Of a stretch of 64,000 nucleotides of DNA, positions 3,092 through 29,107 are shown piece by piece. The stretch spans positions 4,277,479 through 4,341,478 of the forward strand of contig NW_017802379.1 in the NCBI RefSeq assembly GCF_001625305.1, in the 5' to 3' direction. The notes under the pieces are model-generated. The model was not told the DNA's origin, did no database searches, and saw nothing but the letters and a program-made list of their open reading frames with translations. The number at the start of each line of letters is the position of its first letter. Position 1 is the stretch's first letter. The stretch is from Branchiostoma belcheri (lineage: Eukaryota). The translations under genes and the position numbers were made by a program.

Positions 3092-3136
3092 TTATCGCTT
3101 CTGGTCTCCCAGGTCATCAATGTTGTCTTCATCAAT
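3092..3136 (-). CDS. DENR: DENR (density-regulated protein) exon 7, terminal, encodes IDEDNIDDLGDQKR*
   Basis: Acceptor ctctatttcag. Matches the DENR C-terminus DDDSIEDLGEVKK. Stop at 3092-3094. Candidate polyA signal (AATAAA on minus) near 2570. Confidence 0.8.
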   Translation of the reverse strand: MDEDNIDDLGDQKR

Positions 3137-3326
3137 CTGAAATAGAGGGATACACAAGTTTTCATTTCTTCTACTGCACAGTATTGGCAATTTGTTTACT
3201 TATTATTCCAAATAAATAAAGAAAATGATTCTTCTACCACTGATACATAGTCTGTCTATCCATCTATCCTCTAGGCTATAACAATCCTAACACGGCTGGT
3301 TCCCAGGCTATAATGATCCTACTGAC

Positions 3327-3466
3327 CTCAGGCCACTTCTCTGGGATCACATCAAAGATGTCGTCCGTCACGTCCCCTTGAATCACGATCTCGTCCTCAT
3401 CTGTTCTGGAGGCCCCACACGCAAACCTATTGGCAAAAAATTTTCTGGCTTGCTCTAGGTCAATAT
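3327..3466 (-). CDS. DENR: DENR exon 6 (SUI1 domain: [47 protein letters not shown])
   Basis: Strong similarity to the human DENR SUI1 domain ([35 protein letters not shown]). Acceptor ttcttcccacag. Donor GAG|gtcagt. Confidence 0.9.
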
Positions 3467-4072
3467 CTGTGGGAAGAAACAGGAAAAAATTGCTTTTCAT
3501 TTGGAGCAACTACTACTAGTACTAGTACTTTTATATTGTGTCTTTTTTTGGTTATATTACAAAATCGTCTGTCAAGGGCAATTTTGATCTGTTACAATTA
3601 AAAGGGACAGGATGAACTTTTAGGTCATCCAGCACAAAAATTTCTTTATGTCTTTAAAACTTAACACATTATCAATGGTCACAGCAGCATTAATGTTGTA
3701 ATAACTATTACAACATCATACAACACACCTCACTATCCAGGCTAATATTCTACAAACCAAATATTCTGTAATACACTACACTGCACACCATGACATAGAG
3801 CAGCAGGATTCAGCCCCTTGTTCAAATAAACACGTGTAAGGCAAACACACGTGCCACAGACTTGTTTTTCTCTCCCTTCCAGGTAATCACTTTTTCACTT
3901 CAGTTGGAGGGCAGGTCTTTTATTAGCCTTAATTGCACGGTTCGACTGTAAATGGAAAACAAATTGACAAGGAACTTCCTGTCAACATGTTTTTCAGTTG
4001 GGCCTACGCTGAAATGTTAATCTGCAAAATTGCCCTGCATGCGTACAAAACATACAAAAAGATGTTTTTATG

Positions 4073-4167
4073 GGTTCACCACACCACGAAGTGGTGTGGT
4101 GAAACCATATTGCTTTTTCTGATGTTTCTTCTCCTTCTCCTCCTCCTTCTCCTCCTCCTGCCATATC
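4073..4167. repeat. Near-perfect 16-bp inverted repeat (ggttcaccacaccac-gaa-gtggtgtggtgaaacc) followed by a (CT)n/CCT microsatellite, inside DENR intron 5
   Basis: Read directly from the sequence. The palindrome is why ORFs on both strands carry the same HHTTKWCGE peptide. Confidence 0.7.
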
Positions 4168-5148
4168 TTTAAATGGATTCAGCTTCTTCATTTTAGGGCC
4201 TAAGGTCCTGAAATTTGGTATGGAGGTACAGTGGGCAAATACCCCTAGGCGTTTTTTAAATTATTGTGATACAGGCTTTTAGAATGGTTTTATTTGAGTT
4301 TTTTGGCTGTGTAATAGCTAATGTATTACTGTGTAAGTGTGCAGTGTTTACCACATTTGGACATGAGTCATCACAATGGCATGCAAGGCATCAACCAATA
4401 GGCATGCAGCTTTCCTCTATTCTCCTTGCTGATTGGCTGTTGGGATTTAACTGGCTTAACTTCATTTACACCTGCACAGAGCCATGCCATACTGACAGTA
4501 TGTCTGTATTCAAGTGTTTTGGTAGGTATTTTAAGCTTTCCTGCTCCAGCATTGGAATGCGGGCTATGAACGCTTCTTTTTATCTTGAAAATCAACAGTT
4601 TGCATTATGCAATCCTAACCAATAATGTAGGGAATAGCTATCCAACTGTTGTAGTCTTAGTTGTATGTTACTTCATACTATAGTTATATCAATGTAAAGC
4701 ATTGTTTTCCCTTGTGTTTCTCATTCTTTCCCTGCCATGTGGTAAAATGTGGTGAACCCATCGCTGTATTTGCTCCAAAGCAAATATTGGCCTTTCTAGT
4801 TGGTACTTCTTTTTGTTGGGAGAACAGAGAATAGAGCTGTGGTAACATGTTATTACACGAAATTGGCTGGTAAACATTTGTATCATCTGATTGTCTACAA
4901 GTCTTCAACTGTCTAAAATCCATTCATTGTGTCATGTAAATGAACATTAGAAAGAAGCTACGAAGGAACCTAAGATTATGATGAATGTAAAAATTAAAAA
5001 CGTCAGGAAATAACCTTATTCCTTACAATTTTATTACTATTTCTTTGTTACTACATGTATATTCTTTGATGGGTTTGGTTTCACAATATCATTTTCCAGC
5101 AGTGTAATTCCCACCAAAATATGGTTGGAAAGAGGAAAGCAGGCTCAC

Positions 5149-5265
5149 CATATGTAGCTAACCCGCGTATCCTGGTCACATATTTCTTCTTGTTTCTCTG
5201 TACCCGTGCGATCGTCACCCCCTGTGGCTCCGCCTTCTTCTTGATTTTGATGTTGCCTCTGCCAC
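5149..5265 (-). CDS. DENR: DENR exon 5 ([39 protein letters not shown])
   Basis: Matches human [31 protein letters not shown]. Acceptor ctccaacag. Donor TATG|gtgagc. Phase-consistent with the flanking exons. Confidence 0.85.
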
Positions 5266-5594
5266 CTGTTGGAGGGATGGGACAAGGCAAAATACAACCA
5301 GCTTGATTGTGATTCTACATGGCTGAAATATGAAGAATGACAGGTAAGGTGAAGTCATCTCCACATAGGAGAAGCATGACGCCTTTTCAAGTAGCTAGCA
5401 GCAGTCAATGCAGTTGTGCTATGGCTCACATTTTTTCAGCCAAGCACACCAGGACACCCCTACTCTTCTTGATAATTGTGTTGGGTTCTTTTACAAACAG
5501 AGATTTGAACACAAGGCCACTGACAATATATGTCTCCATCTGAAAGTATCAATGCAAAGACTGCCTAAAACTAGTAAAAGTACAAGAAACTGAC

Positions 5595-5654
5595 CTCTCT
5601 TTTGTCTTCCCTTCTTGTCTGTGTCTCCTGTGTCTCCTCCTTCTGGGGGTTTCT
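5595..5654 (-). CDS. DENR: DENR exon 4 (acidic/basic linker EKPPEGGDTGDTDKKGRQKR)
   Basis: Acceptor ctgtcttgcag. Donor GAGAG|gtcagt. 60 nt and phase-consistent. Confidence 0.75.
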
Positions 5655-5848
5655 CTGCAAGACAGGAAAGAAACTACATGTATTAGTAATTTGTAGAAGA
5701 AACCTATAGATCCATTATGGCATAATACATGGCAACACAGCTATTAGAAGTAAATACTGAAAACCAACACTAAGTCTAAAGAATTACCAAGAGGAATCAA
5801 CATTGAGAAAGAAAAAAAAAAACAATGCAGAAATATTGCTATCCATAC

Positions 5849-5936
5849 CTGAGAGATATAACTTGCCAAATTCGGAGGGCAGGTTCTTCTCTAACCAGGC
5901 TTTACACTTGTCATTGTTTGGCATGTACTCACAGTA
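5849..5936 (-). CDS. DENR: DENR exon 3 ([29 protein letters not shown], zinc-binding region)
   Basis: Matches human [26 protein letters not shown]. Acceptor tctaccaacag. Donor TCAG|gtatgg. Confidence 0.85.
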
Positions 5937-6246
5937 CTGTTGGTAGATGAGGAAACAGGAAGTTAGATTATTTTGGCATTAAACTCATTTATGCTACATT
6001 AGTATTTTATGGACAATACAATCTTTAATACTAGTACTCAAATTAATTGTTATCCACACTTTACATTTACATCTTTTCAAAACACCAAAAGAGACACTTG
6101 CATATTCTTTCTACAGTGTCACAGTTAGGAAATCATGCAACGTCATTGATCACTGATGTGCAGTACTGATGCACAGCAGCAGGTGGGGCTGCTACACAGC
6201 AGCCTTGCTTCTCTATAGTCACAAAGGTTCAGCTAGAAAGCCTTAC

Positions 6247-6266
6247 CTCTACTGGTAGTGTGCATT
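6247..6266 (-). CDS. DENR: DENR exon 2, a 20-nt microexon (ECTLPVE)
   Basis: cag|AATGCACACTACCAGTAGAG|gtaagg. Restores the frame between exons 1 and 3 and gives YCGECTLPVEYCEYMP, matching human YCGVCSLPTEYCEYMP. Confidence 0.7.
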
Positions 6267-6485
6267 CTGAAATTGAGGCAAAAGAAAGACACATTAGAAA
6301 ACATGTCTTGACTTGATGTGAAAACTAAAACTGGTCCCTGTCAATGTAAGTAGAACTGTACTATTGCATGTGTATATCAATAAAGAAAAATGTGCTTCAC
6401 TGAACAAAGTCAGCAGCTTACTTCTCCAAAATTATTCTTAGCCATAAGGATGAAGGATTTTGTCAGTATCTTTTATGTTACCTAC

Positions 6486-6576
6486 CTCCACAGTATAAGA
6501 TCCTTAGAGGATATGATACATTTTTCTTTGGTGCTTTTGCTCCAGCCTCTGCTTCGGCTTCTTCTGTGGAAGCCAT
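6486..6576 (-). CDS. DENR: DENR exon 1 (MASTEEAEAEAGAKAPKKNVSYPLRILYCG)
   Basis: ATG at 6576-6574. Donor GGAG|gtaggt. Matches human DENR ...DYPLRVLYCG. Confidence 0.8.
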
Positions 6577-8119: not shown

Positions 8120-9643
8120 CTATTTAATCTTCCTCTTGCTGTACAGCACTTTTTCAAAGGTTAGAGTCAGTTGAACTGAACAGTACATGGAAGCCAGAAG
8201 CTTTACTGTGACAAAGGGGAAGCCCGAAATGAAAAACTTATCGAAGTACACATAACCAGCGCTGGTCCCTCCAAGGAAGACTAAGTTAAACAGGATGAGG
8301 AAGGCTAGGATGGGAGCGTTACACAGTGCCTTCAACCTCCTCTGGTTCTGAGGTGAGAGTTGGCTTGTGTAATGTTGTACTGTGGCCGTCTTTGCAATGA
8401 TGGCGCCGGTAGATTCCACCACGATGCCAGTCCAGTTGAGGAGTCCCCATGCGATAAGATAGTACTGTCCACCGTGCCAGTAGCACACCATCCCGAAACA
8501 AGCTGCTGACGCCAGCAGCTGACGCACGATGCCCTTGTGAGACCCGCCCAGTGGTATGTAGATATATCGGACCAGGAAGGTGTGCAGGCCATTGTCGAAG
8601 TACCTCCACATGGCCGTAAACGTGTACAGCGCGCTGACGCATCGCGGGAACATCGGAGGTTCAATCCCATCCAGCATGGCAATGGTTGACGAGAAGCCAT
8701 AGAGGACCATGTACTTGACATGGAAGAACTGCACGTGAAGGTACCCTATACCGGTCACTTCCATCAGGGGCAGGTTTTCCAAGATGGAGATTTGCTGTTC
8801 AAGTTCACAGAAGTACAGCAGATGATACGCAGCCTCGGTGATGATGGCCCATATCGTAACACGGCACGCGCACCATGCAACACGTTCCAAGCGTGTCTTG
8901 TCCAACAGGATGGGATGTTTGATGTACTCGTGGAATGTGTTGTACGTGATGACAGGGCCATTGAAGAACAGGGGAATGTAGAAGTTGAACAAGAGGAAGT
9001 CAAACAGAGAATATGCCTTCTGGTCCCTGCGAAGTTTGCAGACTTCCAGGCTGAAGCTGAGCTGTCGGAGAATTGACATAGCCGCGGTGAAAAGTAGTAG
9101 ATAGTACGTGCTCTCGTCCTCCCCTGATAATGTGTACTGAAGTACTTTGAAAAGGCTGGAGTTGAGTGTGGCCACGATAAATATTCCTACCCCCCAGCAT
9201 AGGAGCGCTGACCGCAACAATGCAGCAGCGTAAAACACCATACAGTGGGCAAGAAGCACACAAAGAGGCTTCCACCCAAGCACTAAGTACAGGCACAGGA
9301 AACTGTAGGCTAAGTACGCTTCTCTTCTGTATTTTGAGAGGAACATTGACATCAGTCTACTGACCACGATATGGCCTACGAAACAAAACACAAGTCCTTC
9401 TTTTAAGTGCGTCTGCCAGAACACCCACTCAAAGTCTGCTATGTCCTTTTTTCTTCCTAGGAATGGTAGGAAGCTTGACTGGTCCAACTCTAGATCCTCA
9501 AAGAGGGTGTCCTCCATCTCCTTTGATAAGACATAGACCACATAGATGGAATAGAAAGCTGGACCACAGAATCCCAGAAAGTACAGGAGCATTTCAATCC
9601 TGGGAAGGCGGGCGGTGTCGGCAGACATCTTGCCTGAAGCCAT
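8120..9643 (-). CDS. HHAT: Hedgehog acyltransferase (HHAT / skinny hedgehog-like MBOAT), intronless
   Basis: 507-aa multi-pass membrane ORF with a real ATG. Motifs KKDIADFEWVFW, AMWRYFDNGLHTFLVRYIYIPLGGSHKG and YWHGGQYYLIAWGLLNWTGIVVE match human HHAT (KKDATDFEWSFW, GMWRYFDVGLHNFLIRYVYIPVGGSQHG, YWHGGYDYLWCWAALNWLGVTVE). The catalytic Asp and His residues are present. Confidence 0.85.
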   Translation of the reverse strand: MASGKMSADTARLPRIEMLLYFLGFCGPAFYSIYVVYVLSKEMEDTLFEDLELDQSSFLPFLGRKKDIADFEWVFWQTHLKEGLVFCFVGHIVVSRLMSMFLSKYRREAYLAYSFLCLYLVLGWKPLCVLLAHCMVFYAAALLRSALLCWGVGIFIVATLNSSLFKVLQYTLSGEDESTYYLLLFTAAMSILRQLSFSLEVCKLRRDQKAYSLFDFLLFNFYIPLFFNGPVITYNTFHEYIKHPILLDKTRLERVAWCACRVTIWAIITEAAYHLLYFCELEQQISILENLPLMEVTGIGYLHVQFFHVKYMVLYGFSSTIAMLDGIEPPMFPRCVSALYTFTAMWRYFDNGLHTFLVRYIYIPLGGSHKGIVRQLLASAACFGMVCYWHGGQYYLIAWGLLNWTGIVVESTGAIIAKTATVQHYTSQLSPQNQRRLKALCNAPILAFLILFNLVFLGGTSAGYVYFDKFFISGFPFVTVKLLASMYCSVQLTLTFEKVLYSKRKIK

Positions 9644-10679
9644 GGCTGGGGAGGCTTTGTCAAAACCAGTCCACGGCGTATATGCAAATTCCGGGATTGT
9701 TCACCTGGTAATTTCCAGCCGAGTACAGCCAACCATCTGCAAGAACAGGCCACAAGATTCTCTCAGTATTTGACGTCAAAACGTGAGCAACCATGGCAAA
9801 TGCCATGAAGGGAAAGTTTGACAAGACGCACATTGGACACAACGAAGGTACACAGTCCTGCTCTGTTTTTGTTTGTTTGTTTGAATGCATTACATCATGA
9901 CCACCTTATGGCTTCTGTCCATCATCAACAGTTGACTTCACCTGACAACATTTTGCAATTTTTACCACACCCGTATTTTTGCCAATGCCATATCTGTTGT
10001 ATGTTTTAAAGAAAACAAAAACACTACCACTGACACTAGGTCCATTTTCTTTTTGCAGTTCCCTTTGTAGAACATTAATATTTTAGTATTGTGTGACATA
10101 CTATATTTTAGTCTGTGTATTGTACTGTATCATATGGAATATGTAGATCAGTGATATAGTGTGGAGGGTTGGTGATTTGGTGGTGTGGTGAGTGTTTCAT
10201 GTAGATAAAAAAAAACATTTCTTTGAGAAAATTTCCTTCTCATAAATCATGACAAGGAAATTTCCTCACATGAATAATTTTATTTTTTAATGATGTGCAC
10301 GTGAACATGTGTTGATGGTTTTACAAATCATCAACACTTAAACATACGTTAGGTTCAGTAGAATGGCACATTTTAAGCGACACAATTGTGGCACATACAC
10401 GTTTTTAACCTTGTTTCGTTAAACATGACGTGTCTTATTATGACTGGTTCCTACTACCCCCCTCCCCTTTCAACAAAAAGCATGTAATATCATGTATGGA
10501 ACTCGCGTGGTTCACATGCCGCAAATCACAGTAAGTTTTTCACACCATTAAACCCATCATTGCTCCTTACATTTTACTATTTTGAGTGAATGGCTCTTAT
10601 CTACATAGTCTAAGAAAAAAATCCCGTAAATGTGTTTCTGTGTGATGAAAATCGATGAAAACTTACCAGAAATTTCGCA

Positions 10680-10880
10680 AAATGTAACAAGATGGTTGGA
10701 GCTGAGCTCGCCTTAGGTCATGCTCATCGCGCAGGCGCCGTGACCCGACGCATGCGCTCTACCCGGCGTTCGAGTTCAAACAGAAATTCAAATTTCCCAG
10801 CGGCGACTGTTGTGTTTTTGTGTACTTTTACTCAGGATTTCAACCCTTAAGAACGGACTCCTGACCGTTGGTATTGCTTC
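10680..10880 (+). promoter_or_regulatory. CpG-rich putative promoter / non-coding first exon of the downstream coiled-coil gene (candidate donor cag|gttagt at about 10877), divergent from HHAT
   Basis: A locally CpG-dense island (gcgcaggcgccgtgacccgacgcatgcgctctacccggcg) in otherwise AT-rich sequence. The position fits. The evidence is weak. Confidence 0.3.
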
Positions 10881-11777
10881 CAGGTTAGTAGAACGTGTCA
10901 GTCTGTCAGTAGCCTTCCGTTTAGGGTCTAGACATCTGTACAGGCTGTGAAATAAGCGATTGTTTGCGCTCTGAAAAGTCGCTTGGTCCCAAAAAAGTCG
11001 TCTGTACAGCTGGTGTCGGCCTGATCAAAGTTTGTTTTCAAAACTTCAGCAACTGATCGATTCGTGTAGAGGCAGTTAAGTTTCATTCTTTCAAAAAGAC
11101 GTGATTTACATAAAAGCATTTGACCTTGTCATTTTAAACAAGTAGATGGTTTATAATATTTGTTGTAATTTTTGGAAGACAATTTTGTGTCACTCAAGAA
11201 GTCGTTAGATGTTTATGACACCTGCTCGTGATAATTTGCTTCTTTTCAAACTCCATCAGGATACGGAAGACCCACTAACAATCAAACAACAGGGAAACAA
11301 AGAAATCCCAAGCATTTAAGAATTGGGAAACTAACATATTTTTTCATTTGCATCCCCTATATCAAGGTAATAAAAAAGTACATAATTTTTTAACAATAGA
11401 TGTCCTGTTCTGTACCACCATAAATTCTAGTCAAATTACAACACCCTGATGCTTGCCCTGTGTTTAAGCTTCATTTGCATGTCTTTGTAGTCGTATTGGC
11501 TATTTCAACATGGAAGAGAAATGTGTATCCATGCGTTCATGTTGGATTAACAGGTGTTATCTGCAACAAATTTTCACAAAAGTCTTCCATAATTCCAAAT
11601 TGTTTCCTGGTCACTCCAGAATCACCAAGATCACCAATCATTAACGAAAAGAGTAAACCCAATAAGAAGTCATCACACACAAATTTATGAAGCTCAGTCA
11701 TTAGACTTTTGTGTGTCCATAGTAACCACTAACCGCGCTGTTATTTCTTCCCAATATTACTTCTCACCCGACCAGAG

Positions 11778-11880
11778 ATGGACCACGCCCCCACTTCACC
11801 CGCCCGAGGCTCGCCGTTTAGCGGACGGAAGGACTACAGCGGCGCCGGGAACAGGAGCGCGGATGGCAGTATTGTCAGAA
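11778..11880 (+). CDS. Coiled-coil gene (CCDC62-like?) exon 1, ATG start (MDHAPTSPARGSPFSGRKDYSGAGNRSADGSIVR)
   Basis: ATG at 11778. Donor A|gtatga. Phase 1 matches exon 2. Confidence 0.6.
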
Positions 11881-18642: not shown

Positions 18643-18826
18643 GTAAGTTGGAATCAATTTTCAACTGAAACTGTGCAATCTTTATTACTCCTCAATACTA
18701 TTTGTGGTGAAATTTCTTTATGTCTTGTTGCCCTTTGGTAGAACAATCATAAGTTCAGCTATCATAATTGATACAGTTTCTTTCTACTGCGTTTCCTAAG
18801 CTTGATTTTCATTGGTCCTTCTGTAG

Positions 18827-18943: not shown

Positions 18944-19163
18944 GTATTACCTGTGTTAACTGTGTGTGAGTGTGGTGCAGTGCAACTACTTTGAGGGAGG
19001 CTACTTGCCATATGGCAAGAGTACACCCTGTGTTGTTTTGTTGGAATGTTTTACTAATATGAAAACATGATTGTAGCTGGTTGTGTTACTAAGTGTGTGA
19101 CAGATAAGTTTGTATGCAGACATGCATCTGAATGGTGAATGGTGGTCTCCTTTGTTTTTTCAG

Positions 19164-19178
19164 ACACACGCACTCTGA
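19164..19178 (+). CDS. Coiled-coil gene terminal coding segment (THAL*)
   Basis: Acceptor tttgttttttcag and an immediate in-frame TGA. AATAAA lies near 19513. An alternative 3' exon at about 19549 (tcttctacag|ATGACAGAAGAGGG...) cannot be excluded. The model totals 509 aa. Confidence 0.45.
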   Translation, partial: THAL

Positions 19179-21084
19179 GCAGCACCCATACTAAGGTGGA
19201 GGTTAGGGTCTGACTTTGTGATTATTAACAAACCTGGGCTCCAAACTGTGTCTGTTGTGCCTGTTGAAATATTTTTTTTTGGCAGTTTGGAGTGCAGGAT
19301 AGTAGATGTAGTGTCTGTAGCACTTTGTTAGTTGCTCTAGTGAAAAAACCTTGTTGTAGCCTGCATGTCGTAGCAGCTATTGGTTCAACTGAGATGCAGC
19401 TTCCTCATTTTTTTTTCCACAGATGCTTTCAATGGTTTGCAACTTTCCATGGATTCTTTGCTAATTGAGATGTCCTTATGTTCAGACACAAGGAATCAAT
19501 GTTGATTTGTTGCTGTTTGGAAATAAATAATACTTGTCTTCTACAGATGACAGAAGAGGGTGAGGCTGAAGAAGAAGGAACACAAGAAAATGGAGAAATA
19601 TGAGGACAACAATTTTACAGACAAAATTGACCATCATACTCACAGATGTAGAGAAATTTTTCAATGATGTCATCTTTTTCTCCATCTTTTTCTTCTAGTT
19701 GGATGAATTTTTCAAAGAAAAACACAGCAAAGCTCTTGTACTAGTTATAGGAAAACTCAGAATTGATAGCTGATGGCAATGCAAAAAATCTATAAGAAAT
19801 TAGAGGCAATATTCAGAGACAGACATAAGATCACAAACTAAAAAAGTGTCGGCTTTTTGTTGCCACTTCATCATGCTTTTTGATAATTTGTTTATAACAT
19901 TGCATGTATTTAAAAGTCCCTTTCTAAATTGCACATTGGTGCCAAAGTACACTCAGATGCCACATTTGATCATATTCATAGAATTTTTATGGAAATTTTG
20001 TTTACTTTTTAGGCAACACCTTCTTTCACTGTTAAATGTTATAGTTATTTAGTATACTGTATGCATAGCTTGGAACCAGTAATATTAATCTCCCTTAGGC
20101 TCTACCAATATTATAGATGTTTATTTCTCTTTTATTCCACATGAACTTAAGTCAATACTGATGTTTCCAACTTAAGTCAATACTGATGTTTCCATTGTAT
20201 GGTTTGTAAGATGTCCCATTGATAACATTCCGTTTCAAAAGTGTTAGTGTCATATGATCCCTTGTTGTGGCATGTTCAACCATGTTTACTTCTCAACATC
20301 AAATGTGAACATTCCCAATGTACATAAATTATTCTATATTTTAATGAATGTGCTTTACCTCAAGCAAGATGTAATGACTTTTCTCAAGTATGAAAAGGAA
20401 TATACAGTATTTTCATTATGTAGTACTGAAGTATAGAGAATTTTGTAACTCTGTATATGCAGTGAGTCTCCAACATTTTGGTTATCATGGTATCAAGTAT
20501 GTTGTTGCAAGCCTTTCGATATGCCTGTATTGTATATTGCTTGCTGTTCAATGTTGTTCATATAAGTCATTACCACTCTGCTGGTTTTCATTTTTATTGA
20601 GATTACCGTATTAGCTACATATATTACAATGGTTTCAAAGCCACACATCTGTGATAATGCACATAATATCTACATTTGTATATTCAAGATCCTTAATATC
20701 TTGCCTTGTGATATTTTGATTTTGTACCCACTTTGTATTTGAACAATCAAAAGTAAATGTATTATTCTCAAGCAGTATGTGTCCTCTGTTGATAGTTGAT
20801 GGAAACCGAAGAAAATGAAGATTCAAGACTCCTAAAACTATTTATTTGACATAGAATGAGACAATAAAGCATTCAATAGTGCCAAATAATGTTTGGATGC
20901 AGGATAGATATAAAGACAAATAACAAGTCATCAAGAATTCTGATGATCTTTATTCAGACAATAATCTTTATATTTTTTCTAGTTGATTACAGAAACAATG
21001 TATAGCTAAACAAAAAAATGTTTACCACAAAGCACTGCTTTTTTCTATACAAGAAAATATTTCTGTATAGATCCCTTCCTTCAG

Positions 21085-21291
21085 CTATGAATTCTTCTTT
21101 ACCAAATGATCATAGGCATCCCATTGGATATTGACGTTTGGAGGAAGGTCTTTTTCAATCAGCTGATTGTAAACATCAGCGTCTACTACAGCTGTCTTGT
21201 AAAAGTCCAGCACATCTTGGAAGGTTTTCATATTTGCCAGCTCATTACTTGGAACTTCATGTCCAAACTCCTTGTAGCACCTTGACAAAAC
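21085..21291 (-). CDS. MRPL50: MRPL50 (mitochondrial ribosomal protein L50) exon 4, terminal
   Basis: VLSRCYKEFGHEVPSNELANMKTFQDVLDFYKTAVVDADVYNQLIEKDLPPNVNIQWDAY matches human ...GSSLPSNWQD...[36 protein letters not shown]. Acceptor tctttacag. Confidence 0.85.
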   Translation of the reverse strand, partial: VLSRCYKEFGHEVPSNELANMKTFQDVLDFYKTAVVDADVYNQLIEKDLPPNVNIQWDAYDHLVKKNS

Positions 21292-21489
21292 CTGTAAAGA
21301 AAAATAGATCAAGAAGACATTAAGACGAAACAGTCCACAAATCTATCTTGAAATCTAACAATGCCAAGCCAAAGCCAGGCCCTGAATATATCTCGCAAAA
21401 TTACAAATGACTCCAAAGCCACTCTAATGATGACTTCCATATCAAACTAGACATTAAATGTCTTTGAAGAATTATACATGTAACGTTAC

Positions 21490-21628
21490 CTGGAATTTGG
21501 TGCTGATGTTTTCAACACTGACGTTCCTCCATTTATCTGTTGGTCCTCCCCTGATCTCTGCTGCCATGCCTTCTAGTCTCTGCTGTAGGTCTGGTGGTGG
21601 CTGGTATGCTCTGGACTTTCGTGTGGGT
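21490..21628 (-). CDS. MRPL50: MRPL50 exon 3 (PTRKSRAYQPPPDLQQRLEGMAAEIRGGPTDKWRNVSVENISTKFQ)
   Basis: Matches human [24 protein letters not shown]. Acceptor tgtttttttcag. Donor CAG|gtaacg. Confidence 0.85.
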
Positions 21629-21871
21629 CTGAAAAAAACAGAGACAATTGAAGTATTTCTAAACTTTACAGAAACTCTCAGTATCTAAAAAGTACAGAAC
21701 AGCTGTGTGGATCAACCTGATCTTTATCAAGTTTATGCAGCTTACATTTATTGTGCAAAAATAGTGTGTTATGCAAATAAAGCTAATTTGCATGGGTAAT
21801 ATCAATAGGGTGCATGTATCATAGGATTAAATCTGACAATTGAGTAACAGCCACTGGGTAGATCAGATTAC

Positions 21872-21999
21872 CTCTGTGCCAGCAAGTCTTGGGTCTCCTG
21901 TTCAGCTGCTGCCAGCTCCTTGTCACCTGAACCTCCAAACAGACTGGACAGAAGTCCACCTCCTTCACTGTAGGCTCTACTACCGGTACATACTGTTGC
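21872..21999 (-). CDS. MRPL50: MRPL50 exon 2 (Gly/Ser-rich linker)
   Basis: Acceptor tttttggagcag. Donor AG|gtaatc. Phase-consistent. Confidence 0.65.
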
Positions 22000-22220
22000 C
22001 TGCTCCAAAAACAATCATATCGTATTTGTAAAACAAAAGAATATGATTACAACATAATTTGCTCAAAAACACAAACCATGCTTATAATTGAGTGTCAGCC
22101 TACCCCCCTCCCCAATAAAACATATCCACACTTCTTTCAAGAACCCAACGTTGTCACAAAATGAAACCGACTGTACACGATATTGAAAATTTATTGAGAC
22201 ATTTGGGGAAGAGTTAATAC

Positions 22221-22298
22221 CTGTTGTAAGTGTAAAGATCTTCTTGATAGAACAAAGAAAGTCCTCAGAAACGTTTTTCCAACCAAGGGCGCAGCCAT
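22221..22298 (-). CDS. MRPL50: MRPL50 exon 1 (MAAPLVGKTFLRTFFVLSRRSLHLQQ, mitochondrial presequence-like)
   Basis: ATG at 22298-22296. Donor CAG|gtatta. The N-terminus is basic and amphipathic. Confidence 0.75.
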
Positions 22299-22581: not shown

Positions 22582-22674
22582 ATGGACGCCTTGGCTGGGT
22601 ACGACAGTGAAGGCAGTGAGTCCAATGATTCAGCATTCACCGACAAACCTCGCCCTTTCCCATTACAAAAACAG
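22582..22674 (+). CDS. RSRC2: RSRC2-like (arginine/serine-rich coiled-coil 2) exon 1 (MDALAGYDSEGSESNDSAFTDKPRPFPLQKQ)
   Basis: ATG at 22582. Donor CAG|gtgaga. Confidence 0.65.
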
Positions 22675-24239
22675 GTGAGATGCACATAATATACTTCATT
22701 GTATGCTTTCTGACAAAATCTGTTGCAGAAAAATGTGATTTTGTCGATATTTTATTGTTTTGTGTGTAGCACTCGACGGCAGCCGACGGACAACAACATT
22801 TCTTGCCAAATATGGCGGGGCACCCCCACTTGTACATGTTTGCAATGTTGTTTGAGGTTTCTGAAAATTTAATGAGATTCCATCAGTGTAATTAGTACTT
22901 TCTTACTGAAATTTAAAAAAAAGTTGAGCTCACAAGGATTGCATAATCAAGGCATTTTGCATGCTAATTTTCACCTACCCCATCTTGAGCTTCATGATTA
23001 GTGAGAGAGAAATTTTGTTGACAAAAAATTGTATTGTAAAATGTTCCTTTTCTCGTGGAAAATCATACCATATTCAACTTCATTGTAGAGATGCATTTTA
23101 TTTCAACGTTCGAAATTAGTGTCAGCATATAGTTCAAATTTACATGTAACATTAACGTTACTCGTTGGTGATGTGAACATGTATATTGTTTTGCATTGCC
23201 CCACTATGGTTATTTCACTGCGACCAAGTCTTTCCCCCTTCCCCAATGCAAAATTACTAGTGATCCCCATGAGATTTAACAGACAGTATATAACCAAGGA
23301 CATTATACATAACTTAGTGTATTGGTGGATTTATAATTTCCTCCGCAACATCTTTTGCACTGCAGTCATCAGATCTGATTAATTGCAGTATCTATCTTCC
23401 CAGATGTACTGACGAACAGCTTTCCTGTAACAGAATCTACTCAGCCCTATCTTTGCTATCATTAGTATGCAGGGTTTTACTTTCATCTGGAAACCCAATC
23501 ATCTGTACTCTGTTCAATTACACACAGATGTGCCTGTGGACTTGATGAAGTCCTGTAATTTTCAGGATGATTGACTGGGTGTTACCATTTCATCAAATTA
23601 TGTCTGGTACCGTACGGACATTGCCTCCACAATACATGTATGTTGATTGTCTCTCCAAGCTAATATCTGTTCCAGAGAAATTTTTGGTGCCAGTCCAATC
23701 TGGATTGACGCAATATGCATACCACCCATTCCATGCAATGTCATGCATACCATCCATGATGAAATAAAATGAATCCTTGACCTAGTCTTCTCATGTAGGC
23801 AAAGGTTTAATATTACCATGCAAAGGATGTCAAGGACAATGTCAACTCTGCTGACCTCATGAAAAGAGTCGTCTGCAGTAGCTATCCCCTTTGCACAAAG
23901 GAGCAATCATTTGATCACCCTTTACTTATGAGTCCTATAGAACTTCCTTTATTAATTTTTCAGAGGCTATGACTATAGTATGAGTATGAATATGAATACA
24001 GCTTTGAGAGAGATGGCTTGAAATGTTAGGAAGGAACTTGCTAAGAATACATGTAATGATGTATGTACAGTTTGCTAATATACTTTTGTACTTAAAGCAT
24101 GCTTAAGTGAATATTTTGTCTTAATTGTCATGTGACACATGTGAAAGGGGCTTTACAAGCAAAATGCACATAGTGTTTTTGTTTCATATTCAGCAGATAT
24201 CCTAGAAGTGATATTTTAAAAGCCTGTTCTATTTTACAG

Positions 24240-24362
24240 GTGCCTATTGTGAGGATGCAGCAACAAGAAGATCTTCCCCAACGTACAAGGGAAGGCCAGC
24301 AGCCAGCTGCCAGTTCTAGTGGTTTGCAGGCCGAGATGTCTGACCTACAGCAAGGCCCAGAG
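24240..24362 (+). CDS. RSRC2: RSRC2-like exon 2
   Basis: Acceptor ctattttacag. Donor GAG|gtaaag. Phase 0. Confidence 0.65.
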
Positions 24363-24853
24363 GTAAAGTCATGCCACTTAAGTTTGGGGGTTTGAAACTA
24401 ACGTCCAAGCATGCTGTTGTATTGATGTATTGATTTTGATTCCACAGTAATACAGGGTTGCCTGCACGAAGAAAAATTGGCCTTAGGGAGAGCAGTGATT
24501 ATGATGTCACTGAAAATACTTAGTTTCAAGCTCCCTATTGATATATCCGGTCCCACCAAAGTCATATTTGACCCAAATGCTGACAGCGCTCTATTGTGGT
24601 TTGTCACGTACTTGTAGTATTTCTGTCCTAGGAATGTGTGTGTGCTTTGTTTATCAGATTGCAGTTATTTTTTTATCTTCTCAAGTTGTTATGTCAACAA
24701 GAATTAGTCCAGGAAAATTCACAACTTTTTTCCCCACAGGATTTTTTCCATGGCAGTGGAGAACTGTGATAGTTTACAGTTACGTATGCATGAGAACTTG
24801 TAACACAGTATAGGCGTTCTCAGATGTCTCCAACTTGTTCCAGGATTGACTGG

Positions 24854-24948
24854 ACCTCTATCTACATGGAAAACCATACATTGTAATAATCTGTGAGCTT
24901 CTCATGCAAGAGATGCAAATATTTTGTTTTCCACATGTAGATAGAGGT
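24854..24948. repeat. Hairpin of ~95 bp with ~21-bp arms (acctctatctacatggaaaac ... gttttccacatgtagatagaggt) in RSRC2-like intron 2
   Basis: Inverted repeat read from the sequence. The loop is about 50 nt. Confidence 0.5.
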
Positions 24949-25191
24949 TACAGCTCAACTCTGGTACTTAAGTCTGTATTTTCAGCATTTTTGTATGTGT
25001 ATGCTAATGAGAGAACTTGAGTTTAAGGTATGATTTTATCCAAATTTTGGAGGTGAGTGTTGCATATAAGAACAGTTAGCATCTTTAGATAGACACTCTG
25101 AAGGAGCACTGAAGCATAGTCTACTGTCATACAGTGGAAGAGATGTAAAAACACATAATAACACCTCTATAATTGATGAACTATGCACCAG

Positions 25192-25284
25192 CTTAAACCA
25201 TGCCTCGGCGAGCCCAGTACTCCGAGTGAAGCTGGTCGGGACAAAAGCATCCGGCCGTTCTTGTTAGACCGGTGGCCGCTACAG
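25192..25284 (+). CDS. RSRC2: RSRC2-like exon 3
   Basis: The acceptor caccag has a weak polypyrimidine tract. Donor CAG|gtaaat. Phase-consistent. This is the least certain internal exon of this gene. Confidence 0.45.
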
Positions 25285-25904
25285 GTAAATAGCAGCTTGG
25301 TGTCTGTACACATCTCAGCCTCAGTCTTCTTATGTATGGAAGAGTATCTCTTCTCTGTCGTATTTTGTGTGTCTATGTCATTTAAAGTCTACAGTCTACC
25401 TTTTGTTAGATTCACAATAAGAGACCAAGACAATTATTGCTTTGGTAACCAGTTGCTGTAATCATTTTCATATTTAATTTAATCTTTGGCTGGTTTTCAA
25501 GAGAAAAACATTATTATATACACATTGGCTATGTAGATATGCATGAATACAAAGGAATTTAACATTTTCAACAATTTTGGTATCAGGATGTTACTAAGTC
25601 AAAATAATGCTTATTTTGAGAAAAATATATTATAATTTTTAAAGTTTTATAATTTGATATCTAAAACTCTACAGTTTCTGGTGCAAAGCTTGGGCCAAGC
25701 AATAGACTACCTATTGGTTTGAAAATGGAAAAATAGAATGCAACAAACAAAGAAATGAGTTGTTACCTGTGCAGATAAAAAGAAAGAATCTTCAACCTTT
25801 CCTCTAGTCTGTTTCTCTTCCAGATGGACAACTGTGCCACTTCTTGATACTAACTTTGTTTTGTTACATTATCCCTTGTAAGACGCCACTTCTTCCCAAA
25901 ACAG

Positions 25905-26503
25905 GACAAGTCCGTATCAGACAGACGTCTCTCGGGCGCATCCCCTCCATCCAATCGTAGCCCATCTCCGAGAAGACGACGGGAGTCATCGCGGTCGGCA
26001 AGTCGGAGTCCCCGGAAGTCTCCCTCACCTGTGGACCAGCGAGAAAAGTCCCACAACAAAAACAACTCAAGATACTCCAAGTCTCCTAGTAAATCCAAGA
26101 TGTCAAGGTCACCTAAAAGATCAAGATCACCAAGGAGTTCACCTAAAGTTTCAAGGTCGCCAAGAAGGTCAAGGACATCACAGACACCATCGCCCAGAAG
26201 GTCTCTCTCGCCCAGGAAGGGATATAAGGGTTCAAGGTCATCAAGGAGCCCTTCTCCAAAGCGTAAGAGGTCAAGATCGCCCAAGAAGAAGGCACACAGG
26301 AGTAAGGGGTCTCCTGAAGGGAGGCACAGACTGAAATCCCCGGACAGGAGACGGCGTTCCCGTGACAGGGCGCGAGGGTCACGGGACAGTCCTGTCCGCA
26401 GGTCATCCAGAGACTGGGAGAAGGGCAAGTCCAAGGACAGGAGGGACTCGCGAAGGTCACCGGACAGGAGACGACGGAGGTCACGTTCAAGGTCACCTCC
26501 CAG
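25905..26503 (+). CDS. RSRC2: RSRC2-like exon 4, a 599-nt RS/SPR-rich exon
   Basis: Acceptor cttcttcccaaaacag. Donor CCAG|gtttgt. Dense SRSP/RRS/SPK repeats. Confidence 0.8.
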
Positions 26504-26670
26504 GTTTGTTCAGGCCTTCTTTTATTTGCACTTTGTATGTTACCAAGTCCCTGCTTTACATCAAAATTATCAGTTTTGTCATAGAGAGAATTGCCGTACC
26601 AGTTGTATGATTTTGAGTCAAACACTTGATAAAACATCTAACATTTTCTCTGTGTTCCTCTGATCTGTAG

Positions 26671-27039
26671 AGAGGCACGGAGACGTTCAAAGTCACTATC
26701 TCCAGAGAGGAAGCATTCGTCGTCGAGATCTCCCTCTCCTCATAGATCAAAATCAGGATCAAAAAAACATCCAAGATCCAGATCCAGATCACTCAGCCCA
26801 GCCAGATCCAAGTCACCTCACCACAGGGGTTCAAAATCAAGGTCCAGATCACCCAGAAAGCAGTCGAGATCACCACGTCGGCAATCCAGATCACCTCGCA
26901 AGCAGTCCAGATCTCCCCGTAGAAGGTCAAGGTCACACTCACCATATGCACGCAAGAGGTCAAGATCTCCCAGGAGACGTCATTCAAGGTCACCTGTATC
27001 CAGGAGAGATCATCGGAGGTCTCCACCACGGAGGAGAAG
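26671..27039 (+). CDS. RSRC2: RSRC2-like exon 5 (second RS-rich exon)
   Basis: Acceptor ctgatctgtag. Donor AAG|gttggt. Confidence 0.75.
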
Positions 27040-27313
27040 GTTGGTTCTAACATCATGGTTTGGGAGGGGTTCATGGAACTATATGTTGGTGGTACATGTA
27101 GGTGCAGAAAAAAAAGAAAGTCGTCAAATTATATGCTCACAATAATGAAAAGTTCAGAAGTACAGAAGTGACCTCAAAAACCGTGAACATAAAAGTACCA
27201 TGCAAAATCAGGAACTACAGTAGTCCTTTTGCAAAAGTTCACATTAAGTCACACACTTACAGGTTAATTACATACTTACATGTGTATACAATGTGTATGT
27301 TCAGTCCCCACAG

Positions 27314-27534
27314 AGGTATGCGTGGCCGTGGTATGCGGGGACGTGGGCGTGGTCGGCGTCGCAGCCCGGGTCACAGGTCACGTTCCTCGTCCGGCAGCGC
27401 CAGTCCAACTGGTGACCCCGCCCTGGACGCACAGGACGCGCTCCGCAGGAGGCTGGAGCGAGCCAAGAAAAAACAGCAGGAGAAGGCAGAACGGGAGAAG
27501 GCTGAGATGGAGGCTAAACTGGAGAGTGGGGAAG
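27314..27534 (+). CDS. RSRC2: RSRC2-like exon 6 (RG repeats, then coiled coil DAQDALRRRLERAKKKQQEKAEREKAEMEAKLESGE)
   Basis: Matches human RSRC2 MDAQEALARRLERAKKLQEQREKEMVEKQKQQE. Acceptor tccccacag. Donor GAAG|gtagga. Confidence 0.8.
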
Positions 27535-27948
27535 GTAGGACAGTGTGGAAACATGTCAAGATATTTTATTTATTTATTTGTTACATTCAGGCACAAAACT
27601 GACCCATATCAACAGATACATGAATATGAAATAAGGACTTAACTTAATCTGCCAACACTGGAATGAATTGGGACTTGCCCAAAGTTTCGGCTGATTCCAT
27701 CAACCTTGTTCACGGAATGGACCCGACTACTCTTGAAATGGGACGTCGGAAACACGTGACCGTAGTAGCGGGTCATACGTACCAGATAATTTGTGTCGCC
27801 CCCCATAATATTTCGTAACAATATGCAAAGAAAAGCCTACCTAAAACTTGGCATAATTCTAAGAAATTCTTATGCCTCTTCATCAGGCCTACTATTTGTT
27901 GTTATGACTTATTTTGTCATGTTTCAAAGGAATGTGTATGTGTTGTAG

Positions 27949-28082
27949 CTGCAGCAGGTGTACCCCCCTCCATTGTGGGAGTGAACCCTCTGCTGGCAGG
28001 ACAGCAGGTGACGCCCCAGGAGGCCGTGTGTGCAGCTGCCAGGGCCATGCAGATGAAGGTAGCAGCTGAAACAGGCATACAG
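27949..28082 (+). CDS. RSRC2: RSRC2-like exon 7
   Basis: Encodes AAAGVPPSIVGVNPLLAGQQVTPQEAVCAAARAMQMKVAAETGIQ, matching human AAAATGGSVLNVAALLASGTQVTPQIAMAAQMAALQAKALAETGIA. Confidence 0.85.
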
Positions 28083-28247
28083 GTGAAAACCTCATACTGT
28101 GCACATATACTACACCTGGCTAGAGTGTATTCACTTACATGATCTTCCTGCTGTAAACATTTTTTTAACAAACAAAATTCCATATGAAATGGTTTGTTTC
28201 TGATCATCAGTTTGCAAAATGTAACCAATGTTCTGTTCTGTTGACAG

Positions 28248-28349
28248 GTGCCAAGTTACTATAACCCAACTGCTGTGAACCCCATGAAATATGCAGAGCA
28301 GATGCAGAAAAGAAAACTGCTCTGGGCTGGCAAGAAAGAAAAGAAAGAG
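28248..28349 (+). CDS. RSRC2: RSRC2-like exon 8 (VPSYYNPTAVNPMKYAEQMQKRKLLWAGKKEKKE)
   Basis: Matches human VPSYYNPAAVNPMKFAEQEKKRKMLWQGKKE. Confidence 0.9.
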
Positions 28350-28550
28350 GTAGGCTTACAGATGTTTATTATCTGTTAACTGCTATTGATATTGTTATGT
28401 TATGTATTTTGTAAAAATATTTCAACAACATCAAGTAGAGTTGTAGATAGTTGGGTGTTTTCAACTTTACTACAATAAGTTCATTTCCGTAATGATCCAT
28501 TTGTAATTTGAGACATGTTAAAGAGTGTCTTCCCTGTATCCATATCTCAG

Positions 28551-28670
28551 GGTGATGCTCCTGCGGGCACTGTATGGGACAAAACCAAGTTCCACGACGA
28601 GGCCACACAGGCAAAGTTCCGCCGACTGATGGGGATCCATGGAGAGGCCTCTGGCAGTGGAGCCAGTCAG
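28551..28670 (+). CDS. RSRC2: RSRC2-like exon 9 (SMAP-domain part: VWDKTKFHDEATQAKFRRLMGIHGEASG)
   Basis: Matches human IWEKLNFGNKDQNVKFRKLMGIKSEDEAG. Confidence 0.85.
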
Positions 28671-28954
28671 GTGAGTCCTTCTGATTTTCTCCAAAGTAGA
28701 TCAAGGAGTACATTCTTGTATGTGATGAACATTTTAGATCTAAAATGTAGTCCAAGAATTCTAGACTTTTCTTAAAGTACAGAGAGATTTGCCACCTGTA
28801 TTGGTGACATTTTGGCTTGCTGGCCATTTTCTGTGACTCTTATGAAAGCCAAATGGCCGTACATGTATTTTTAGTACATCAAGTGGCCAACATAGGTAAT
28901 GTTGACTGTAGTTGTCAGTGGATGTTGAGTTAGATATTGCTGATTTGTTTTTAG

Positions 28955-29107
28955 GCACCTGGGGACGGACCAGACATTCAGCAGGAGCAGGAGAAGCTGT
29001 TCCGTACGCTGGAGGCGCAGTACGAGTTTGCACGCGGCACGACGCACACACAGAAGGGCGTGGGACTCGGCTTCTCATCAGCACGCCAACCTGGGCCCAC
29101 GCTATAA
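28955..29107 (+). CDS. RSRC2: RSRC2-like exon 10, terminal (QQEQEKLFRTLEAQYEFARGTTHTQKGVGLGF...*)
   Basis: Matches human QQEEVFRNLDAQYEMARSQTHTQRGMGLGF. Stop TAA at 29105-29107. The full model is 668 aa. Confidence 0.85.
   Translation, partial: APGDGPDIQQEQEKLFRTLEAQYEFARGTTHTQKGVGLGFSSARQPGPTL

What the first reader, a model, noticed from the sequence alone, without database searches (positions are those of the whole stretch)
3092..29107. Vertebrate 12q24.31-type linkage (DENR next to a CCDC62-like coiled-coil gene, RSRC2 nearby) preserved within 26 kb
The hand-built models place a DENR ortholog, an adjacent coiled-coil gene and an RSRC2-like SR/SMAP gene within ~26 kb. From memory, the N-terminal coiled coil of the middle gene (STIEKQRKELQLLIGELKDRDRELNDMV) resembles CCDC62. 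In human, DENR and CCDC62 are immediate neighbours at 12q24.31 and RSRC2 lies a few hundred kb away on the same band. If the middle gene really is CCDC62, this is an ancient conserved micro-linkage. It also gives independent support for the gene call, which I could not make confidently from sequence alone.
Basis: partly seen in the sequence, partly recalled or inferred. Interest (0 to 1): 0.5.

Follow-up and report, generated by a model that had tools for sequence, protein, structure and literature searches.

The report
Ancient DENR–CCDC62 gene neighbourhood in amphioxus
This stretch of a lancelet (amphioxus) genome carries the DENR, CCDC62 and RSRC2 genes close together as in human 12q24.31, and the DENR–CCDC62 pairing also exists in an annelid and a brachiopod, so it is a genuine but ordinary example of ancient gene-order conservation.

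Summary
The three gene calls are right. The window comes from Branchiostoma, close to B. belcheri. It holds DENR (- strand, CDS 6576 to 3092), CCDC62 (+ strand, 9793-19600) and RSRC2 (+ strand, about 22582-29107).

The middle gene is CCDC62. Every named hit among the 120 listed is CCDC62 or an uncharacterised protein (two Nematostella isoforms in one CCDC62 cluster are labelled cingulin). It is 44% identical to mouse CCDC62 over 307 residues without gaps.

"Adjacent" is not exact. An intact, intronless HHAT-like acyltransferase gene (8120-9643, -) lies between DENR and CCDC62. MRPL50 lies between CCDC62 and RSRC2.

DENR sits directly upstream of CCDC62, head-to-head, in the annelid Owenia (2.9 kb) and the brachiopod Lingula (2.2 kb). 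In a bat the two are in tandem (3.7 kb). Counting amphioxus, that is four lineages, which meets the published criterion for a conserved ancestral microsyntenic pair. DENR is absent within 10 kb of CCDC62 in three ambulacrarians and two cnidarians.

The RSRC2 link is seen only in amphioxus and vertebrates. It could be a remnant of the ancestral neighbourhood, but this is not shown.

Hundreds of such pairs are already known in amphioxus, so this is a new member of a known kind, of low to moderate interest.

The parts
3092..6576 (-). DENR orthologue. CDS from ATG at 6576 to the stop codon at 3094-3092. Exons lie near 6576-6490, about 6290-6240, about 5960-5870, about 5660-5600, about 5290-5170, about 3445-3300 and 3175-3095 (approximate).
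   Evidence: Pfam DENR_N 7e-19 and SUI1 6e-18. Aligns over residues 15-186 with human DENR, PDB 5VYC, E 4.7e-69. Landmarks, open frames. Annotated as a DENR_N gene in B. belcheri L001.
8120..9643 (-). Intronless HHAT-like MBOAT acyltransferase gene (507 aa), lying between DENR and CCDC62. This intervening gene was not mentioned in the finding.
   Evidence: Single ORF. Pfam MBOAT 1e-30. 91% identical to an HHAT-like protein from a B. floridae hybrid assembly, 53-54% to other amphioxus HHAT-like proteins and about 40% to vertebrate HHAT. pN/pS = 0.034 against the L001 allele. Called as a gene in L001.
9644..9792 (.). 149-bp spacer between the divergent start codons of the HHAT-like gene and CCDC62. 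It is a candidate shared (bidirectional) promoter and contains a perfect CRE palindrome, TGACGTCA, at 9771.
   Evidence: Coordinates. CRE found and retained at -22 in L001. Promoter function is inferred, not shown.
9793..19603 (+). CCDC62 orthologue (about 519 aa). Exons by tblastn of P0001: 9793-9846, 11775-11882, 14944-15000, 15618-15761, 15925-16122, 16512-about 16660, 17063-17242, 17410-17502, 17672-17776, 17932-18030, about 18200-18285, 18457-18645, 18827-18946. A possible alternative last exon, matching the B. lanceolatum C-terminus, ends at 19600.
   Evidence: 44% identity to mouse CCDC62 over 307 aa without gaps, plus the C-terminal SPTSKLHRLLEESRQMV motif.
21085..22298 (-). MRPL50-like gene (two coding exons, 161 aa in the B. 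belcheri annotation). This is the intervening gene between CCDC62 and RSRC2, and it lies head-to-head with RSRC2.
   Evidence: Pfam Ribosomal_L50, below the gathering threshold on my partial model. Recorded as PF10501 for the annotated product in L001. Coordinates mapped.
22582..29107 (+). RSRC2 orthologue (593 aa in the B. belcheri annotation). It has a long Arg/Ser-rich region (exons within 25854-27050), a coiled coil (about 27310-27530) and a C-terminal SMAP domain (28245-29104). The stop codon is at 29105-29107.
   Evidence: Pfam SMAP 5e-15. All named top hits are RSRC2, with B. lanceolatum at 91% and vertebrates at 45-51%. Limits mapped from L001.

Best explanation
The region is an inherited remnant of an ancestral bilaterian gene neighbourhood, not a functional device. 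In the bilaterian ancestor DENR and CCDC62 most likely lay head-to-head (5'-5'), 2-3 kb apart. That state survives unchanged in an annelid and a brachiopod.

In the amphioxus lineage an intronless HHAT paralogue, probably a retrocopy, settled in the spacer. It now starts 149 bp from the CCDC62 start codon. In the lineage leading to mammals DENR was inverted, giving the tandem DENR>CCDC62>HIP1R order.

RSRC2 lies two genes further on in amphioxus, and, from memory, a few genes away in human (RSRC2-KNTC1-HCARs-DENR-CCDC62). It is probably a looser remnant of the same ancestral neighbourhood.

Retention is best explained by two things: the very small breakpoint target (2-4 kb spacer) and the slow rearrangement rate of amphioxus. 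Some contribution from shared promoter-region regulation is possible.

Shown: the gene identities, the gene orders and the orientations. Inferred: the ancestral orientation, the retrocopy origin and the reason for retention.
For: The same order appears in a second B. belcheri assembly.

Order and orientation elsewhere:
- Owenia: DENR(-) CDS start at 7136, CCDC62(+) at 10001.
- Lingula: two DENR copies (-), the nearer starting at 7794, CCDC62(+) at 10001.
- Bat: DENR(+) ending at 6316, CCDC62(+) at 10001.
- A Fukomys 'CCDC62' model carries DENR_N, which is a read-through fusion consistent with tandem order.
- Zebrafish denr/ccdc62/hip1ra synteny with human chr12 is published (PMC7575005).
- The hemichordate Glandiceps keeps CCDC62>HIP1R as in human.

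[quoted passage not shown] Amphioxus is known to retain 448-492 such pairs.

Loss of ancestral 5'-5' arrangements in stem vertebrates is a documented trend (PMC6292497).

The HHAT-like insert is absent from the Owenia and Lingula spacers. It is intronless and only 53% identical to the other amphioxus HHAT-like proteins.

RSRC2 and CCDC62 share a chromosome-scale record length in B. lanceolatum and several vertebrates, and map to one human chr12 locus (PMC13493937).
Against: No DENR lies within 10 kb of CCDC62 in Asterias, Diadema, Glandiceps, Montipora or Nematostella (tblastn). So the pair is either not eumetazoan-wide or has often been broken. The 10-kb flank limit means looser linkage could not be seen.

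The ancestral orientation rests on three non-vertebrate lineages and one mammal. No fish, lamprey or tunicate locus could be retrieved.

The human gene order and distances for RSRC2 are from memory plus a GWAS gene list, not from a map read here.

Under a scrambled-within-chromosome null, I estimate the chance that one of the about 5 other genes in the block comes from the human 12q24.31 band at several per cent. The RSRC2 part is therefore not significant on its own.
Confidence: 0.8

Rival explanations
1. The DENR|CCDC62 pairing is actively maintained by selection because the two genes share cis-regulatory sequence in their common 5' spacer. That would be a bidirectional promoter region or shared enhancers, so that breaks between them are deleterious.
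For: The 5'-5' orientation with a short spacer (2.2-3.2 kb CDS to CDS) is kept in three phyla. 5'-5' pairs are over-represented among conserved microsyntenic pairs and keep their orientation more often (PMC3514665). Adjacency survives even in mammals, with a 3.7-kb gap.
Against: Orientation is not kept in the bat, so a shared divergent promoter cannot be essential. In amphioxus a whole gene sits in the spacer, separating DENR from CCDC62. The spacers are longer than the <1 kb taken as the signature of a bidirectional promoter. The pair is absent within 10 kb in five other species. From general knowledge, DENR is ubiquitous and CCDC62 is testis-enriched in mammals, so co-expression is not expected. 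No shared motif was found: a CRE occurs near CCDC62 only in amphioxus and Owenia.
Confidence: 0.15
2. The co-occurrence is coincidental. The three genes came to lie together in amphioxus by independent rearrangement and do not reflect ancestral linkage.
For: Two unrelated genes are interleaved: the HHAT-like gene and MRPL50, whose human orthologues are elsewhere in the genome (from memory). Orientation differs from mammals. The RSRC2 association alone has an appreciable chance probability.
Against: With roughly 1,000-1,500 genes per chromosome, I estimate a specific pair falling within one gene of each other at about 0.3% per lineage. Seeing this independently in amphioxus, Owenia and Lingula as well as vertebrates is about 1e-8 for the pair. 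Published randomisations give <0.0002 per pair for four lineages.
Confidence: 0.03
3. The middle gene is a generic coiled-coil protein (LZTS-, tropomyosin- or cingulin-like) that only resembles CCDC62 through coiled-coil composition, so the synteny claim is empty.
For: No Pfam family defines it, and the only Pfam hit is a sub-threshold Tropomyosin match. Two Nematostella isoforms in the same cluster are named 'cingulin' by NCBI.
Against: All named hits at E 1e-99 to 1e-68 are CCDC62. There is a gap-free 307-residue alignment with mouse CCDC62 at 44% identity, a 27/28 match of the N-terminal motif, and a second conserved block at the extreme C-terminus. Compositional similarity does not produce this.
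Confidence: 0.02

Closest known systems
Conserved ancestral microsyntenic pairs (CAMPs) of Irimia et al. 2012 (PMC3514665)
   Same: [quoted passage not shown] They have a short intergenic distance and a 5'-5' orientation in most lineages. Amphioxus is one of the best retainers (448-492 pairs).
   Different: I could not check whether DENR-CCDC62 is already in their list, because the supplement is not held. Orientation is not conserved into mammals. Neither gene is a developmental regulator. No co-expression data are available.
Human 12q24.31 / zebrafish chr10 denr-ccdc62-hip1r(a)-hcar block (PMC7575005)
   Same: The same orthologous genes, DENR and CCDC62, are neighbours. RSRC2 is in the same region in human (PMC13493937 gene list).
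   Different: Vertebrates have DENR and CCDC62 in tandem (bat), followed by HIP1R. Amphioxus has them divergent, with an HHAT-like gene in between and no HIP1R detected in the window, though 34-64 kb was only partly scanned. CCDC62>HIP1R is instead kept in a hemichordate.
Ancestral bidirectional promoters disentangled in vertebrates (Marletaz et al. 2018, PMC6292497)
   Same: A 5'-5' arrangement is present in amphioxus and other invertebrates and lost in the vertebrate lineage. The window also holds two very tight divergent pairs: HHAT-like|CCDC62 at 149 bp and MRPL50|RSRC2 at about 283 bp.
   Different: DENR|CCDC62 start codons are 2.2-3.2 kb apart, which is longer than typical bidirectional promoters. 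No CAGE data were examined here.

Membership tests
CCDC62 orthologue | Best database matches are CCDC62, with no competing family | tested here: met
   Among the top 120 hits, every named one is CCDC62 or uncharacterised, E down to 1e-99 outside Branchiostoma. None is LZTS. Two Nematostella isoforms in one CCDC62 cluster are labelled cingulin.
CCDC62 orthologue | Colinear alignment with mammalian CCDC62 across the N-terminal coiled coil, including the STIEKQRKELQLLIGELKDRD motif | tested here: met
   44% identity over 307 aa with no gaps against mouse P0107. The motif matches at 27/28 positions.
CCDC62 orthologue | Conserved C-terminal LXXLL-containing block (the nuclear-receptor interaction motif described for CCDC62/ERAP75; that role is from memory) | tested here: met
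   SPTSKLHRLLEESRQMV against mouse SPTSKLQRLLAESRQMV, 61% identity over 36 aa. Function not testable.
CCDC62 orthologue | Genome-wide reciprocal best hit and testis or ciliated-cell expression | not testable with these tools
   No whole-proteome reverse search or expression data are available. Public annotators name the B. lanceolatum protein CCDC62.
DENR | N-terminal zinc-binding DENR_N domain plus C-terminal SUI1 domain in one protein of about 190 aa | tested here: met
   PF21023 7e-19 and PF01253 6e-18. Full-length alignment with human DENR, PDB 5VYC, E 4.7e-69.
RSRC2 | Arg/Ser-rich N-terminal half, central coiled coil and C-terminal SMAP domain, with best hits to RSRC2 rather than to small acidic protein | tested here: met
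   PF15477 5e-15. Every named hit among the top 120 is RSRC2 or hypothetical/uncharacterised. The RS-rich frames are visible at 25854-27050.
Conserved ancestral microsyntenic pair (Irimia 2012) | [quoted passage not shown] | tested here: met
   DENR-CCDC62 in vertebrates, amphioxus with 1 intervening gene, annelid with 0 and brachiopod with 0. Criterion as quoted.
Conserved ancestral microsyntenic pair (Irimia 2012) | The same criterion applied to RSRC2-CCDC62 or RSRC2-DENR | tested here: inconclusive
   Only two lineages are documented. Amphioxus has 1 and 3 intervening genes respectively. For vertebrates I have the same chromosome by record length and the same human locus. RSRC2 is absent within 10 kb of CCDC62 in all eight other species' loci.
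Bidirectional-promoter gene pair | 5'-5' orientation with transcription starts less than 1 kb apart | tested here: not met
   DENR|CCDC62 CDS starts are 3.2 kb apart in amphioxus, 2.9 kb in Owenia and 2.2 kb in Lingula, and the genes are tandem in the bat. TSS positions are unknown. The distance criterion is met by HHAT-like|CCDC62 (149 bp) and MRPL50|RSRC2 (about 283 bp).
Genomic regulatory block | A developmental regulator whose enhancers or conserved non-coding elements lie in neighbouring bystander genes | not tested
   None of the genes is a known developmental transcription factor or signalling gene (general knowledge). No non-coding conservation analysis across phyla was attempted.

The most novel reading that the evidence does not exclude
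DENR|CCDC62 is a bilaterian-wide 5'-5' pair held together by a shared regulatory spacer. In amphioxus an HHAT retrocopy inserted into that spacer and became a conserved, functional gene by capturing the CCDC62-side divergent promoter (149 bp, with a CRE). This would be a concrete case of retrogene birth by promoter hijacking inside an ancient microsyntenic pair, and vertebrates then separately 'disentangled' the pair by inverting DENR.
Probability: 0.2. Interest if true: 0.4.

Novelty: new member of a known kind. Interest (0 to 1): 0.27.

Why it matters
The result confirms three hand-built gene models in unannotated sequence and shows that synteny can be used as independent support for a gene call. 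It adds a documented example, with orientation and spacing, to the catalogue of ancient animal gene pairs: DENR-CCDC62 in chordates, an annelid and a brachiopod. It also points to two small evolutionary events worth a note. One is the insertion of a functional intronless HHAT paralogue into the pair in amphioxus. The other is a change from divergent to tandem orientation on the way to mammals, in line with the reported loss of ancestral bidirectional arrangements in stem vertebrates. It does not reveal a new mechanism or system.

Tried and rejected
1. Look-ups of isoform-X2 proteins failed because only the longest isoform is indexed: P0002 B. lanceolatum, P0030 Pristis, P0117 Styela. No fish, shark, tunicate or second amphioxus species locus was obtained. 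X1 isoforms recovered through the listing of cluster members worked.

2. The supplements of Irimia 2012 are not held. The supplements of Robert 2022 contain none of the gene names. Whether this pair is already listed could therefore not be settled.

3. A literature search for CCDC62 plus Branchiostoma found nothing.

The 34-64 kb remainder of the window was inspected only through open frames and a few targeted Pfam queries. No KNTC1, HIP1R, ZCCHC8 or other 12q24.31 orthologue was recognised, but small-exon genes could have been missed.

5. I searched for a shared CRE motif in CCDC62 upstream regions across nine loci. It is present only in amphioxus (-22) and Owenia (-948, -1221), so it was rejected as a conserved feature.

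6. I considered LZTS, tropomyosin or cingulin identity for the coiled-coil gene and rejected it.

Full report
**Source and gene content**

The window is animal DNA, with about 40% G+C, split genes and no prokaryotic features. A hand-spliced coiled-coil model from + strand frames between 15.9 and 19 kb was searched against the large protein collection. It matched Branchiostoma belcheri 'estrogen receptor binding' protein (P0001, 95%) and B. lanceolatum CCDC62 (P0002, 92%). These were followed by CCDC62 of crinoids, starfish, Owenia, Lingula, hemichordates, nemerteans, sea urchins, cnidarians and many vertebrates, at E 1e-99 to 1e-68. Every named hit among the 120 listed was CCDC62 or uncharacterised.

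The exact locus of P0001 in assembly GCA_025402995.1 (L001) has the same gene order as the window. It is 93% identical at the nucleotide level over 27 kb. The window is therefore B. belcheri, either a divergent haplotype or a very close relative.

**Checking the three genes**

- **DENR.** The - strand model (ATG 6576, stop 3094-3092) carries Pfam DENR_N and SUI1. It aligns over its whole length with human DENR, PDB 5VYC, E 4.7e-69.
- **CCDC62.** tblastn of P0001 places exons at 9793-9846, 11775-11882, 14944-15000, 15618-15761, 15925-16122, 16512-, 17063-17242, 17410-17502, 17672-17776, 17932-18030, 18457-18645 and 18827-18946. Against mouse CCDC62 the amphioxus protein is 44% identical over 307 residues without a gap. 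The quoted motif matches at 27 of 28 positions. A second conserved block lies at the C-terminus: SPTSKLHRLLEESRQMV, which contains an LXXLL.
- **RSRC2.** The + strand model has a long RS-rich region, a coiled coil and a C-terminal SMAP domain. All its named top hits are RSRC2. Mapping from L001 gives a CDS from about 22582 to 29107.

The finding's limits, 3092 and 29107, are exactly the DENR and RSRC2 stop codons.

**What the finding missed**

The genes are not strictly adjacent. Two genes are interleaved.

An intact single-exon 507-aa MBOAT ORF lies between DENR and CCDC62 (8120-9643, - strand). It is an HHAT-like paralogue. It is 91% identical to a protein from a B. floridae hybrid assembly, but only 53-54% identical to the other amphioxus HHAT-like proteins and about 40% to vertebrate HHAT. 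Against the L001 allele it has 44 synonymous and 5 non-synonymous differences, giving pN/pS of about 0.03. It is therefore a functional gene. Its ATG is 149 bp from the CCDC62 ATG on the opposite strand.

A two-exon MRPL50-like gene lies between CCDC62 and RSRC2 (about 21085-22298, - strand). It is head-to-head with RSRC2, with about 283 bp between the start codons.

The order is therefore DENR(-), HHAT-like(-), CCDC62(+), MRPL50(-), RSRC2(+). An LRR gene (70-1473) and a single-exon BTB-Kelch gene (31634-33535) flank the block.

**Neighbours of CCDC62 elsewhere**

The look-ups show CCDC62 with 10 kb on each side.

| Species | Group | What flanks CCDC62 |
|---|---|---|
| Owenia fusiformis | annelid | DENR(-) directly upstream, head-to-head, 2.9 kb between CDS starts |
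| Lingula anatina | brachiopod | two tandem DENR copies (-) upstream, the nearer 2.2 kb from CCDC62(+) |
| Phyllostomus | bat | DENR(+) ends 3.7 kb upstream of CCDC62(+), in tandem |
| Glandiceps | hemichordate | no DENR, but CCDC62 followed by HIP1R in tandem, as in human |
| Asterias, Diadema | echinoderms | no DENR by annotation or tblastn |
| Montipora, Nematostella | cnidarians | no DENR by annotation or tblastn |

A Fukomys 'CCDC62' model carrying DENR_N is a read-through fusion that fits the tandem order seen in the bat. A published figure reports denr, ccdc62, hip1ra and hcar genes in conserved synteny between zebrafish chr10, human chr12 and mouse chr5 (PMC7575005).

**Is it more than chance?**

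For DENR-CCDC62, yes. Irimia et al. [quoted passage not shown] Their randomisation false-positive rate is below 0.0002 per pair. Vertebrates, amphioxus, an annelid and a brachiopod satisfy this. My own rough estimate, for about 1,000-1,500 genes per chromosome in random order, gives about 1e-8 for this pair.

For RSRC2 the evidence is thinner. It is two genes from CCDC62 in amphioxus. It lies on a record of the same length as CCDC62 in B. lanceolatum, Spea, Trachemys, Dendrobates, Discoglossus and sturgeon. It is in the same human chr12 locus list as KNTC1, DENR, CCDC62 and HIP1R (PMC13493937). It was not within 10 kb of CCDC62 in any other species' locus. With several genes in the block and some 25 genes in the human band, I estimate a chance co-occurrence at several per cent. 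The RSRC2 link is plausible but not demonstrated.

**Interpretation**

The most parsimonious history runs as follows.

1. An ancestral bilaterian 5'-5' DENR|CCDC62 pair had a 2-3 kb spacer. It is retained as such in the annelid and the brachiopod.
2. In amphioxus the orientation is retained, but an intronless HHAT paralogue (probably a retrocopy) was inserted into the spacer.
3. On the vertebrate stem, or later, DENR was inverted to give DENR>CCDC62>HIP1R.

The last step fits the reported loss of most ancestral bidirectional arrangements in stem vertebrates (PMC6292497).

I favour passive retention, aided by a very short spacer and the slow rearrangement rate of amphioxus, which retains 448-492 CAMPs. 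I give active selection on a shared promoter less weight, for five reasons:
- orientation is not kept in mammals;
- a whole gene now sits in the amphioxus spacer;
- the spacers exceed 1 kb;
- five sampled species lack the pair within 10 kb;
- no shared motif was found.

Regulatory constraint remains a minority possibility.

**Novelty and limits**

Amphioxus-vertebrate synteny and ancient microsyntenic pairs are well established. The vertebrate DENR-CCDC62-HIP1R block is in the literature, and the amphioxus genes are already annotated as CCDC62 and RSRC2 in public records. I found no paper that mentions this pair outside vertebrates, and the relevant supplementary lists could not be read. I therefore class it as a new member of a known kind, of low to moderate interest.

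The limits are these:
- flanks of only 10 kb;
- twelve look-ups, three of them lost on non-indexed isoforms;
- no fish or tunicate locus;
- human map positions from memory;
- no expression data.

Noticed in passing
window 8120-9643 (- strand): An intronless, intact HHAT-like MBOAT gene lies in the DENR|CCDC62 spacer. It is 53% identical to other amphioxus HHAT-like proteins and 91% to a B. floridae-hybrid orthologue, with pN/pS about 0.03 against another B. belcheri allele. It looks like a Branchiostoma-specific functional retrocopy. One of the 53% relatives (P0278) is on a record of the same length as L001's contig.
   Followed up: partly
window 9644-9792 and 22299-22581: Two very tight divergent gene pairs are present: HHAT-like|CCDC62 with start codons 149 bp apart, and MRPL50|RSRC2 with about 283 bp. 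They are candidate bidirectional promoters, a class reported for 25% of amphioxus neighbouring genes. A perfect CRE, TGACGTCA, lies at 9771, 22 bp before the CCDC62 ATG, and is kept in the other assembly.
   Followed up: partly
L008 1229-3505 and 5487-7794 (Lingula anatina): Two tandem DENR gene copies (184 aa each, with identical tblastn scores) lie upstream of CCDC62. This is either a recent tandem duplication or an assembly duplication.
   Followed up: no
L003 10001-28221 (Glandiceps talaboti): CCDC62 is followed in tandem by HIP1R, as in human 12q24.31, although DENR is not within 10 kb. Different lineages have kept different halves of the DENR-CCDC62-HIP1R block.
   Followed up: partly
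window 31634-33535 (- strand) and 70-1473 (+ strand): Two further single-exon genes flank the block: a 633-aa BTB-BACK-Kelch (KLHL-type) protein and a 467-aa LRR type-I membrane protein. Counting the HHAT-like gene, the window has several intronless genes.
   Followed up: no
window about 36700-38800 (- strand); about 48180-48430 (- strand), with a PGTKWCGAGD stretch near 54300 read by eye: Exons of a phospholipid scramblase (Pfam PF03803, 1e-10) and of a group-III-type secreted phospholipase A2 (PF05826, 8e-22; the query joined the two stretches, but the match lies in the 48.2-48.4 kb exon). Neither gene family maps to human 12q24.31 (from memory). The adjacent 222-aa ORF at 54313-54981 has no Pfam match.
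   Followed up: partly
L004 25097-26125 and 42251-43393 (Owenia): Single-exon rhodopsin-type GPCR genes lie inside and just downstream of Owenia CCDC62. In vertebrates the single-exon HCAR GPCRs also sit beside DENR/CCDC62. This is probably coincidence, and homology was not tested.
   Followed up: no
window versus L001 (whole 27 kb overlap): Nucleotide identity to the public B. belcheri assembly is only about 93%, with many indels, and synonymous divergence is 0.13 in the HHAT-like ORF. This is either the extreme allelic diversity typical of lancelets or a closely related species.
   Followed up: partly
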